Assembly: GCA_038087875.1 (NCBI GenBank)
Contig: CM075992.1
Span: 4,652,001-4,716,000 of the forward strand
Length of the DNA stretch: 64,000 nucleotides
Direction: 5' to 3'
Source: Malacoraja senta
Taxonomy: Eukaryota
The notes under the pieces were generated by a model, which saw only the letters and a list, made by a program, of their open reading frames with translations, did no database searches and had not been told where the DNA came from. The position numbers and the translations under genes were made by a program. How positions within the stretch are numbered: position 1 is the stretch's first letter; each line of letters opens with the position of its first letter. Shown piece after piece: positions 50,280-52,739 of the stretch.

Positions 50280-50397
50280 TTACGGATAACAGCAGTCCGT
50301 CCCATCATCACACAGTTTTTTCCCTTCATTATAGTCTGGTTCACAGGGAGATAACTGCAGGTTCCTTTTAGATATTTGCAGGTTATGGTGCTTGAAT
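50280..50397 (-). pseudogene. Beta-defensin-like gene B, exon 2, with a 1-bp deletion (corrected: DSSTITCKYLKGTCSYLPCEPDYNEGKKLCDDGTDCCYP*)
   Basis: TTTCAG acceptor; 118 nt vs 119 nt in gene A; frameshift at the GGG run 50346-50348; AATAAA on the minus strand at 50140-50145. Confidence 0.8.
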
Positions 50398-52675
50398 CTG
50401 AAACCCAAGATCAATCATGCAGTTAATTTGTGAACCGTTCATTATCTGTGACGGAGAGTCAGACAAATACTTTTTATAACAAAAAAACAAGAAAATGATG
50501 GAAACATCAGCATCAAAATGACACAAAGTGCTGGAGTAACTCAGCGGGTCATGCAGTATCTTTAGAGAACATGGATTGGTGACGTTTTGGGTTGGGACCC
50601 TTCAGCTTGATTGCAAGGAGAGAGAAGAAAGCTGGTAAAGAGGAGAGGGAGGACAAAGCATGGCAGGTAATAGATCGACACAGGCAAGAGTTTTTTTTTG
50701 ACAGGCTGATGGTTGGAACAAAGGCCTGAGATAAGAACAGTAGGTGTGAGACACGAAACATCAGCATCCGTGGAAAGAGGGCAGTTGGTGGAGTCACTGC
50801 ACCGCAGCAGGGAGACCCGAGTTTGATTCTGACCTCATCGGCCGTGTGTGGACTTTCCTCATTCTCATGTGATGGTTGGAGGTTCCTCAGGGTGCTCCAA
50901 TTTCCTCCCACAGCCCCAAAATATGTGGTTTGTAGGTTAATTGGCCTCTGTAAATTGCCCCTGGTGTGTAGGGAGTGGATGAGAAAGTGGGTTAACAGAA
51001 CTAGTGTGAACGGGTGATTGGTGGTCAGCGAGAGCAAAAGAGCTTGTTTCCATGCTATATTGTTCAATTAACTAAACTAAAAGGATTAGTTCGTTTTCAA
51101 TTTCCAATCCCCTTCATCAGGACAGGGAAGTGAGAAAATGATTTAATTTTCAGTGAAGAACAAGTGGGAGAAGAGATGACTTGAACAAAGAGAATGTTCC
51201 TCCCTCCACATATACTGTTGGACCTGCTGACTGCTTCCAGGATGTTTCTGTTTTTAGATCAGATTTCTAACACCCCCAATGTTCTGGTTAAGATTCCTAT
51301 AACTCCATTCACAATGGACAGTCTGAAGAAACTGTATGAATTTTTGCCAAGCCAACATATTGAGAGAATCACCATAAAAGTGTTCTTAAAAATACTGTCT
51401 GAATGGTTGTTATTCATCTTACATTACAGGGAAAAAAGGCCTCTCTTCCAATTACGTGTGCGAATATGTAGGCTCGATTGCGAGAGAATATGGGCTTCAG
51501 GTTTATATGCGATTTAAAGAAAGTGTCTTTGTCGATACAGTGATCTCTCAGTTTTATATTTGAATTGCCACAGCAATTTCTGGTGTGTGATGGCCCCACT
51601 GAATTCTGAATGTGGAAACCCGACGTCTGACTGCTGAGCTGTGGTTGAAGTGGATATGCAAAGTCAGTTGTTGCTGTTCTCATTCAAGCCTCTCCTGCTC
51701 ATGAACACTGTGGCACATCATTAAAGAAGTACTTTCCTTTCATTCCTCACTCTCATAGAACATAGAGCAGTAAAGCACAGGAACAGTCCTTTCTGCCCAC
51801 AATGCCTGTGCCTAACATGATGCCAAGAGAAACCAATCCCATCTTCCCGCACGTGATCCATATCCCTCCATTTCCTGCATAAAACTTTAAATGCCACTAT
51901 CATATCTGACTCCACCACTTTGCTTCAGGGACTGCCTGTGTAAAAAACCTGCCCCACACATCCCCTTTAAACTTTGCCCCTTTCACTTTAAAGTTGTGCC
52001 CTCTAGTCTTTGACATTTATACCCTGATAAAATGTCCAACTGCCTACCCTGTCAATGCTTCTCATAATATTATATACTTCTATCAACTCTCCCCTCAATC
52101 TCTGACGTTCTGGAGGCAATTGGGGTCCCTGAAGCTGAATAACACAACTCTGGGTTAGAGATGCAGCACTCTAAGACTCCAGTGCTGGCTCTTGGTCCAT
52201 TTTATATCATTGCCTGCTCCTGAACTCAATAACTAAACAAGTAATCAGGGAATATATAAACAGAGACACAGTAAACTGCGAATGCTGGAATATTGAGCAA
52301 AACACAAAATGCTCGAACACCTCAGCAGATCAGACAGACATATATAGACGGACAAGTTTCAAATTAAATCCTCAGCTTCTTTCAAACCAGTACATTCAGC
52401 AGAGAATTGCTTGATTCAAAGATACAGCATTTGCTGAGCTCACACTGATCATTTATTACCCATTCGCACTTTATCATCCCCTCCCTACATACTAGGGGCA
52501 ATTTACAGAGGCCAATGAACCTACAAACCTGCACATCATTGGGATGTGGGAGGAAACCGGAACAGCCAGAGGAAATCCACATTTGTCACAGGGAGAACAT
52601 GCAAACTCCACACAGGCAGCTCATTTTTTAACAGACTACATTAGTTGATAGAGAGACAGGAGGAGGAACACTCAC

Positions 52676-52739
52676 CCACCAACTGCAAGTCTGGAGGCAG
52701 CAACAGGAGACCAAGGACAAGGATCAATGCTTTCATCAT
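52676..52739 (-). CDS. Beta-defensin-like gene B, exon 1 (MMKALILVLGLLLLPPDLQLV)
   Basis: Paralogous to gene A exon 1, same 61-nt length from the second ATG, G|GTGAGT donor. Confidence 0.85.

What the first reader, a model, noticed from the sequence alone, without database searches (positions are those of the whole stretch)
50280..52739. Inverted paralogous defensin with one frameshift: young pseudogene, null allele or assembly error
Seen: gene B is head-to-head with gene A, about 4.9 kb between start codons. It has the same exon-1 length and intron phase, and 24/39 identical exon-2 residues once one base is restored at the GGG run (50346-50348). All six Cys, the stop position, splice sites and polyA signal are retained despite about 38% amino-acid divergence. 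As assembled it reads ...CSYLPVNQTIMKGKNCVMMGRTAVIRNCA*. Inference: it was under selection until very recently, or the deletion is a homopolymer sequencing error and the gene is functional.
Basis: partly seen in the sequence, partly recalled or inferred. Interest (0 to 1): 0.7.

Follow-up and report, generated by a model that had tools for sequence, protein, structure and literature searches.

The report
Skate defensin gene with broken allele
A skate-like fish carries a small family of defensin-like immune peptide genes beside its complement C3 gene, and the one that looks broken here is intact in another sample and in two related species, so it is a variant or sequencing slip rather than a dead gene.

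Summary
Gene B (50280-52739, minus) is an old paralogue of gene A, one base short at the G run 50346-50348. It is not a fixed pseudogene. Of 4 runs laid, 3 have four G and an intact frame: a deep run of the best-matching organism (otherwise identical over 441 bases) and two related organisms, whose only exon-2 differences are synonymous. The fourth, a shallow run from a second sample of the same organism, has three G like the window, but reaches only 25 letters past the run (31 are needed to count as bridging). Best reading: a segregating loss-of-function allele (about 0.7), like human DEFB126-del; an assembly error shared with its source reads about 0.2. A third paralogue exists outside the window. 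Both peptides have beta-defensin Cys spacing, a signal-like exon and a phase-1 intron, but are anionic and hit no Pfam model, so 'beta-defensin-like'. The host is a skate-like batoid; the genes lie 5 kb upstream of complement C3. Reviews I read place beta-defensins 'from teleost fish to mammals', so the gene family is more interesting than the frameshift.

The parts
52676..52739 (-). Gene B exon 1: ATGATG start and hydrophobic signal-peptide-like 20 codons, phase-1 GT donor
   Evidence: Kyte-Doolittle 7-residue means up to 3.4; 14 of 20 residues identical to gene A exon 1
50398..52675 (-). Gene B single coding intron, 2,278 nt, GT...AG, with interspersed repeats
50280..50397 (-). Gene B exon 2 coding part: mature six-Cys peptide, one base short as assembled
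   Evidence: conserved in runs X1, X3, X6
50346..50348 (+). G run: three G in the window and in run X2, four G in runs X1, X3 and X6
   Evidence: tables 4 and 8
50270..50272 (-). Stop codon reached by the shifted frame, 10 nt past the normal stop; not conserved in run X6
50140..50145 (-). Gene B AATAAA polyadenylation signal, 135 nt after the stop
57610..57670 (+). Gene A exon 1 (signal-peptide-like, phase 1)
59264..59382 (+). Gene A exon 2: intact 39-residue mature peptide, Cys spacing 6-4-10-5-0, net charge -2
   Evidence: ESM Atlas first hit beta-defensin cluster, score 0.86
59533..59538 (+). Gene A AATAAA polyadenylation signal
1899..45378 (-). Context: 5' part of a complement C3-like gene (17 exon matches, residues 1-743 of P0001), ATG 4.8 kb downstream of gene B's polyA signal, same strand
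62754..62876 (-). Context: probable Ly6/uPAR (LU-domain) exon
   Evidence: ESM Atlas lead, score 0.86, 155 shared features; no Pfam or PDB hit

Best explanation
Gene B is a normal, conserved member of a small family (at least three genes) of two-exon, beta-defensin-like secreted peptides in a skate-like batoid. The window shows a derived one-base deletion allele that segregates in the species beside the intact allele. Shown: intact four-G form in one sample of the best-matching organism and in two relatives; purifying selection on exon 2; three-G form in a second sample; no splice choice restores six Cys. Inferred: the intact precursor (59-60 residues) is secreted, the signal peptide is removed, and a 39-residue anionic three-disulfide peptide acts in mucosal innate defence, by analogy with anionic flounder beta-defensin probably as much by attracting and priming leukocytes as by direct killing. 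The deletion lies in the last exon, so the mRNA should escape nonsense-mediated decay (established knowledge) and give a 42-residue product that lacks four of the six framework Cys and cannot form the fold: a functional null, tolerated because paralogues A and C remain.
For:: extra G behind 50345 in 3 of 4 runs (X1 depth 38.4, one contig over all 441 bases, 0 substitutions; X3 depth 23; X6 depth 4.3); X2 contig 50060-50373 has 0 substitutions and 0 gaps against the window, i.e. three G; exon-2 differences in relatives are 2 (X3) and 1 (X6), all synonymous; 0 of about 92 non-synonymous sites differ against 14 of 320 and 14 of 310 flanking sites (Fisher p 0.047 each); A versus B exon 2 pN 0.21, pS 0.70. 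Assembly quality: 17 of 17 C3 exon matches are single-frame over 2,310 bases holding 32 runs of 4 or more identical bases; the window equals X1 at all 12 other such runs in 50060-50500, and X2 agrees at 9 of 9 within its span, including T8, T6 and three G/C4 runs. X2's 0.63 share of words and depth near 3 fit a shallow but accurate run (rough, assuming words need two sightings, which is recalled). 24 of 24 open alternative splice combinations give at most 4 Cys. Third paralogue: a second contig in 4 of 4 runs lies on 50355-50417 with 5-7 differences and other flanks, absent from the window. Precedent: common frameshift allele of human DEFB126 (PMC11330205, passages).
Against: X2 extends only 25 letters beyond the run, under the tool's 31-letter rule for bridging; it is one contig at depth 3.1, its library type is not on record, and it may be the very sample the window was assembled from, so it is not independent of the window. 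Only 3 of the 32 control runs in C3 exons are G/C runs, so the control is weak for this base type (95% upper bound 9% per run overall). Contigs drop minority alleles and only about 88 in 100 of X1 was read, so genotypes cannot be called. The two Fisher tests share 7 differences and are not independent. Family and function are inferred: no Pfam, PDB or sequence homologue was found and both structure models are low confidence.
Confidence: 0.7

Rival explanations
1. Homopolymer error: the assembled individual has four G; the window lost one base in long-read consensus, and run X2 shows the same loss because it is the error-prone source data. Gene B is simply intact.
For: The only difference between window and X1 in 441 bases is a one-base loss in a G4 run, the typical long-read error (established knowledge). 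X2's library is not on record and its low word depth could come from noisy reads; with a 15% per-run error, two of 3-5 reads share the loss 6-16% of the time.
Against: 0 frameshifts in 17 C3 exon matches with 32 runs; 12 other runs, longer ones included, agree with X1; X2 of 9 other runs as X1 and the window do. With accurate reads (error 1% or less) a shared loss has a chance of about 0.001 or less at depth 3-5.
Confidence: 0.2
2. Recent copy-number variant: two nearly identical copies of gene B exist, one intact and one with the deletion; contigs collapse them and show one or the other.
For: Beta-defensin loci are known for copy-number variation (PMC4255768, search listing and start of abstract); at least three paralogues exist.
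Against: Only one B-like locus in the 64 kb window; X1's contig spans the stretch in one piece with no substitution. Contig depth is no copy number, so it was not used.
Confidence: 0.05
3. Fixed young pseudogene: the deletion is fixed in the window's species and X1 comes from a sister lineage filed under the same organism label.
For: X1 holds only 0.85 of the sampled words of the gene despite depth 38, so it differs from the window somewhere in the 2.7 kb.
Against: X1 has 0 substitutions in 441 bases, whereas the two related organisms differ at about 4.4% of flanking sites; X1 and X2 carry the same organism code.
Confidence: 0.04
4. The deletion allele is not null but encodes a new cationic peptide: the shifted product is 42 residues, net +5, pI 9.4, with four Cys, and could be a membrane-active variant kept by balancing selection.
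For: Charge flips from -3 to +5 and length is nearly unchanged; last-exon frameshifts escape decay (established knowledge).
Against: 6 of 6 differences of the relatives in this region are non-synonymous in the shifted frame and one removes its stop, so the frame was not conserved beforehand; a 24-codon open frame arises in 14.6% of shuffles. No allele-frequency or activity data.
Confidence: 0.04

Closest known systems
Teleost beta-defensins (e.g. sea bass defb1/defb2; PMC8231796, passages)
   Same: Signal peptide of about 20 residues plus mature peptide of 39 residues (paper: 18-26 and 39-45); six Cys with similar spacing (sea bass defb1 Cys31, 38, 42, 54, 60, 61 = 6-3-11-5-0; here 6-4-10-5-0); first exon 55-58 bp there, 61 here.
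   Different: Teleost genes have three exons and are mostly cationic; these have two coding exons and are anionic (-2, -3). No sequence hit links them.
Mammalian beta-defensins / proposed ancestral two-exon vertebrate beta-defensin (PMC8231796, PMC7203481, passages)
   Same: Two exons; phase-1 intron at the 5' end of the Cys-rich region, described as shared by beta-defensins and big defensins.
   Different: Found in a cartilaginous fish, outside the 'teleost fish to mammals' range these papers give; no Gly two residues before Cys4 (that motif is recalled, not from a call); next to complement C3.
Anionic beta-defensin of olive flounder (PMC8698591, abstract and passages)
   Same: Net negative mature peptide; gives the functional model (growth inhibition of bacteria, leukocyte chemotaxis, more phagocytosis).
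   Different: Flounder precursors are 67-77 residues with a pro-region (PMC8231796); none is seen here. No shared ancestry was tested.
Human DEFB126 2-nt deletion allele rs11467417 (PMC11330205, passages)
   Same: Small deletion in a C run of exon 2 of a beta-defensin gene, segregating beside the intact allele.
   Different: DEFB126-del gives a non-stop mRNA and is common (11-27% homozygotes in that study); here the shift removes four framework Cys, stops 10 nt late, and its frequency is unknown.

Membership tests
vertebrate beta-defensin | Six Cys in a C-x-C-x-C-x-C-x-CC array with beta-defensin spacing | tested here: met
   A: 6-4-10-5-0; B the same with the break column counted; compare sea bass defb1 6-3-11-5-0
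vertebrate beta-defensin | Disulfides paired 1-5, 2-4, 3-6 | not testable with these tools
   Needs disulfide mapping or a structure; the predicted models are too poor to read pairs from
vertebrate beta-defensin | Three-stranded antiparallel beta-sheet fold | tested here: inconclusive
   AlphaFold2 pLDDT 54.9 and 51.4, short strands at 19-21, 28-30 and 35-36; no fold match; low-confidence models give meaningless searches
vertebrate beta-defensin | Signal peptide ahead of a mature peptide of about 39-45 residues | tested here: met
   Hydropathy only; no signal-peptide predictor was available
vertebrate beta-defensin | Phase-1 intron just before the Cys-rich exon | tested here: met
   61-nt exon 1 in both genes; feature from PMC7203481
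vertebrate beta-defensin | Cationic net charge (typical, with known exceptions; not treated as defining) | tested here: not met
   Net -2 (A) and -3 (B), pI about 4.4; anionic members exist in flounder
Pfam Defensin_beta (PF00711) and related models | HMM match | tested here: not met
   0 families for 6 of 6 exon-2 queries; ESM Atlas ranks PF00711 clusters first at 0.86 with 178 shared features, a lead under the 0.9 mark
vertebrate beta-defensin | Antimicrobial or chemotactic activity, epithelial expression | not testable with these tools
fixed (unitary or duplicated) pseudogene | Disabling change fixed in the species and neutral decay of the coding sequence | tested here: not met
   Four G in X1, X3, X6; only synonymous exon-2 differences
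segregating loss-of-function allele | Both alleles present among individuals in accurate reads | tested here: inconclusive
   Four G in X1, three G in X2, but X2 is shallow, below the bridging rule and possibly the assembly's source

The most novel reading that the evidence does not exclude
These are true beta-defensins of cartilaginous fishes, so far undescribed, that keep the predicted ancestral two-exon, phase-1 gene structure and sit between complement C3 and a Ly6/uPAR gene. That would push the family back to the jawed-vertebrate ancestor, tie its origin to the C3-bearing MHC paralogous region (primordial immune complex), and give a fish parallel to the human DEFB126 null polymorphism.
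Probability: 0.35. Interest if true: 0.65.

Novelty: new member of a known kind. Interest (0 to 1): 0.38.

Why it matters
The frameshift itself is ordinary: either a loss-of-function allele in a redundant immune gene family or a one-base assembly slip; its practical effect is that annotation of this assembly will miss or mislabel a working gene. The genes matter more. The papers I read describe beta-defensins from teleosts to mammals and list none among shark or skate antimicrobial peptides, and propose a two-exon ancestor. A conserved family of at least three two-exon, anionic, beta-defensin-like genes in batoids, next to complement C3, would make the origin and first genomic home of vertebrate beta-defensins directly testable by synteny across shark, ray and chimaera genomes.

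Tried and rejected
No whole genome is held for this window, so the third paralogue could not be placed. No RNA holder listed among 24 runs; this says nothing on expression. Only 4 of the 24 listed runs and only 441 bases (exon 2 and flanks) could be laid; B exon 1 and gene A were not compared across runs, and the other small-share runs are no evidence. Homologue searches with gene A exon 2 and with an alignment of A and the two pieces of B found no candidate; these need three shared 5-residue words and are weak for short fast-evolving peptides. The representative search gave 3 hits; the two I read (P0009, P0011) are long repeat proteins without the six-Cys array and were rejected, P0010 was not read. 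Pfam, PDB by sequence and fold searches gave nothing; the second model was not searched. An automatic exon-joining of C3 chose some wrong splice sites and was replaced by the tblastn matches for the error control. Rescue by alternative splicing was rejected. A conserved second reading frame was rejected. Contig depths were not used as copy number. dS between A and B (about 2.0) is saturated, so dN/dS (about 0.12 for exon 2) is only qualitative. Three look-ups in earlier findings returned nothing. PMC4451809 (vertebrate beta-defensin evolution) is not held. A venom role was considered only briefly: nothing in the calls points to it, and the peptides are anionic whereas defensin-fold toxins such as crotamine are cationic (recalled).

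Full report
1. Observation. Gene A lies on the plus strand (exon 1 57610-57670, exon 2 59264-59382) and gene B on the minus strand (exon 1 52739/52736-52676, exon 2 50397-50280), 4,871-4,874 bases apart at their start codons. Both have a 61-nt first exon, a phase-1 GT-AG intron and an AATAAA 135-151 nt after the stop. tblastn with A finds B in two frames at E 7e-9 and nothing else below E 0.2 in the window. With X at the break, 23 of 39 exon-2 columns are identical and all six Cys align. The six-Cys pattern occurs once in the window's six frames and in 0 of 100 shuffles. A and B are old paralogues: exon-2 pS 0.70 against pN 0.21.

2. Host and neighbourhood. No genome is held for the window. 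The minus strand from 45378 to 1899 carries the first 17 exon matches of a complement C3-like gene; the exon queried is 69% identical to Amblyraja radiata C3-like, 57% to Narcine and 46-51% to the six shark and Mobula proteins among 8 hits, and matches C3 chains in the PDB. The host is therefore a skate-like batoid (inference). Gene B ends 4.8 kb upstream of the C3 start codon on the same strand. A probable Ly6/uPAR exon lies at 62754-62876 (a lead only, score 0.86, no Pfam or PDB hit).

3. The frameshift in other data. A run search with gene B listed 24 runs, 2 holding half or more of its words: X1 (0.85) and X2 (0.63), two samples of organism A in one study. I laid 4 of the 24 on 50060-50500 at 80% likeness. 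X1 gives one contig over the whole stretch at depth 38.4 with 0 substitutions and one extra G behind 50345, so an intact frame. X3 (organism B, depth 23) and X6 (organism C, depth 4.3) have the same extra G. Four G is thus the shared state of three organisms and three G is derived. X2 gives a contig over 50060-50373 at depth 3.1 with 0 substitutions and 0 gaps, so three G as in the window; it ends 25 letters beyond the run, short of the tool's 31-letter rule, has no library record, and may be the source of the assembly. It is supportive, not decisive.

4. Selection on gene B. The relatives differ from the window at 2 (X3) and 1 (X6) coding positions of exon 2, all synonymous, against 14 of 320 and 14 of 310 flanking positions; 0 of about 92 non-synonymous sites differ where about 4 were expected (Fisher p 0.047 each; not independent, 7 differences are shared). 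Gene B is a working gene under purifying selection, not a decaying copy.

5. Allele or error. Against error: 17 of 17 C3 exon matches are in one frame over 2,310 bases with 32 runs of four or more identical bases (upper bound 9% per run, and only 3 are G/C runs); the window agrees with X1 at the 12 other runs in the laid stretch; X2 agrees at 9 of 9 runs in its span, T8 and T6 included. A shallow accurate run at mean depth about 2.2 would hold about 0.65 of the words at contig depth about 3.0, close to what X2 shows (assumes words need two sightings, which is recalled). For error: the single difference is a one-base loss in a G run, and noisy source reads could share it (6-16% at 15% per-run error). 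I put a real segregating allele at about 0.7, an error at 0.2, a collapsed recent duplicate at 0.05 and a fixed pseudogene at 0.04.

6. Consequence of the allele. The shift falls between Cys2 and Cys3. None of 24 open alternative splice combinations gives more than 4 Cys. The shifted product is 42 residues, stops 10 nt late, and changes net charge from -3 to +5. Being in the last exon it should escape nonsense-mediated decay (established knowledge). It is most likely a functional null; a new cationic activity is not excluded, but the shifted frame shows no conservation (6 of 6 differences non-synonymous, one removes the stop) and is open by chance in 14.6% of shuffles.

7. A third paralogue. 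In 4 of 4 runs a second contig lies on 50355-50417 with 5-7 differences and unrelated flanks. Its loose end, read by hand, continues in frame as C-S-V-L-P-C-E-P-N-Y-N, with four residues between Cys2 and Cys3; the X3 and X1 versions differ at three codons, all synonymous. It is closer to B than to A and is not in the window (one 3-mismatch hit at 33840-33857 outside any defensin exon). Redundancy among A, B and C offers a reason why a null allele of B could be tolerated (inference).

8. What the peptides are. For a beta-defensin: Cys spacing 6-4-10-5-0, close to sea bass defb1 (PMC8231796, passages); a hydrophobic 20-residue leader; a 39-residue mature peptide; a phase-1 intron just before the Cys-rich exon, which PMC7203481 (passages) gives as the shared mark of beta-defensins and big defensins; and ESM Atlas ranking Defensin_beta clusters first (0.86, 178 shared features, recognition 2624). 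Against or open: 0 Pfam families for 6 of 6 exon-2 queries, no PDB or protein-collection homologue, models at pLDDT 51-55 without fold match, anionic charge, and untested disulfide pairing. I call them beta-defensin-like, with membership likely (about 0.8) but not shown. The functional model is the anionic flounder beta-defensin, which inhibited bacteria, attracted leukocytes and raised phagocytosis (PMC8698591, abstract and passages).

9. What is in print. [quoted passage not shown] The antimicrobial-peptide section of a review comparing cartilaginous and bony fish lists no shark or skate defensin (PMC6795676, section 14 read whole). PMC8231796 proposes a two-exon ancestor, with three exons in teleosts. 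A shark skin proteome paper mentions defensin only in a reference (PMC10707392). A paper on the cartilaginous-fish MHC places C3-like genes in the primordial immune complex and MHC paralogous regions and has 0 occurrences of 'defensin' or 'LY6' (PMC10751288, passages). Six searches pairing defensin with cartilaginous-fish terms and one with MHC paralogues and C3 listed no title on chondrichthyan defensins; one search showed 30 of 863 and 15 of 27 papers, subscription journals are mostly missing, PMC4451809 is not held, and no supplements were read, so absence from print is not established. Segregating frameshift alleles of beta-defensins are known (DEFB126, PMC11330205, passages; some searches were the searches).

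10. Verdict. The finding as posed resolves to something ordinary: an intact gene with a probable null allele or, less likely, an assembly slip. The lasting value is the family itself, a new member of a known kind in a lineage where the papers I saw do not report it, with the predicted ancestral gene structure and a C3 neighbour. Interest 0.38; 0.65 if synteny and disulfide mapping confirm the novel case.

Noticed in passing
second contigs on window 50355-50417 in runs X1, X2, X3, X6: A third defensin-like paralogue, closer to B than to A, present in all three organisms laid and absent from this window; the part visible is in frame and differs between organisms only synonymously.
   Followed up: partly
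window 1899-45378 (-): 5' half of an intact complement C3-like gene (17 exon matches; one intron of only about 80 nt near 19250-19330), directly downstream of gene B on the same strand.
   Followed up: partly
window 62754-62876 (-): Cys-rich exon resembling a Ly6/uPAR (LU) domain, so a gene facing gene A tail to tail; other exons not located.
   Followed up: partly
window 2-1426: Tc1/mariner element inside a C3 intron: 303-codon open frame with transposase domains and terminal inverted repeats identical at 202 of 207 bases, so a young insertion.
   Followed up: partly
window 50270-50348 (-): The shifted frame of the deletion allele gives a cationic 42-residue peptide (net +5, four Cys) in place of an anionic one.
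   Followed up: yes
window 59640-59900 and 61900-62650: Long (GAGTGA)n/(GT)n simple repeats between gene A and the Ly6-like exon.
   Followed up: no
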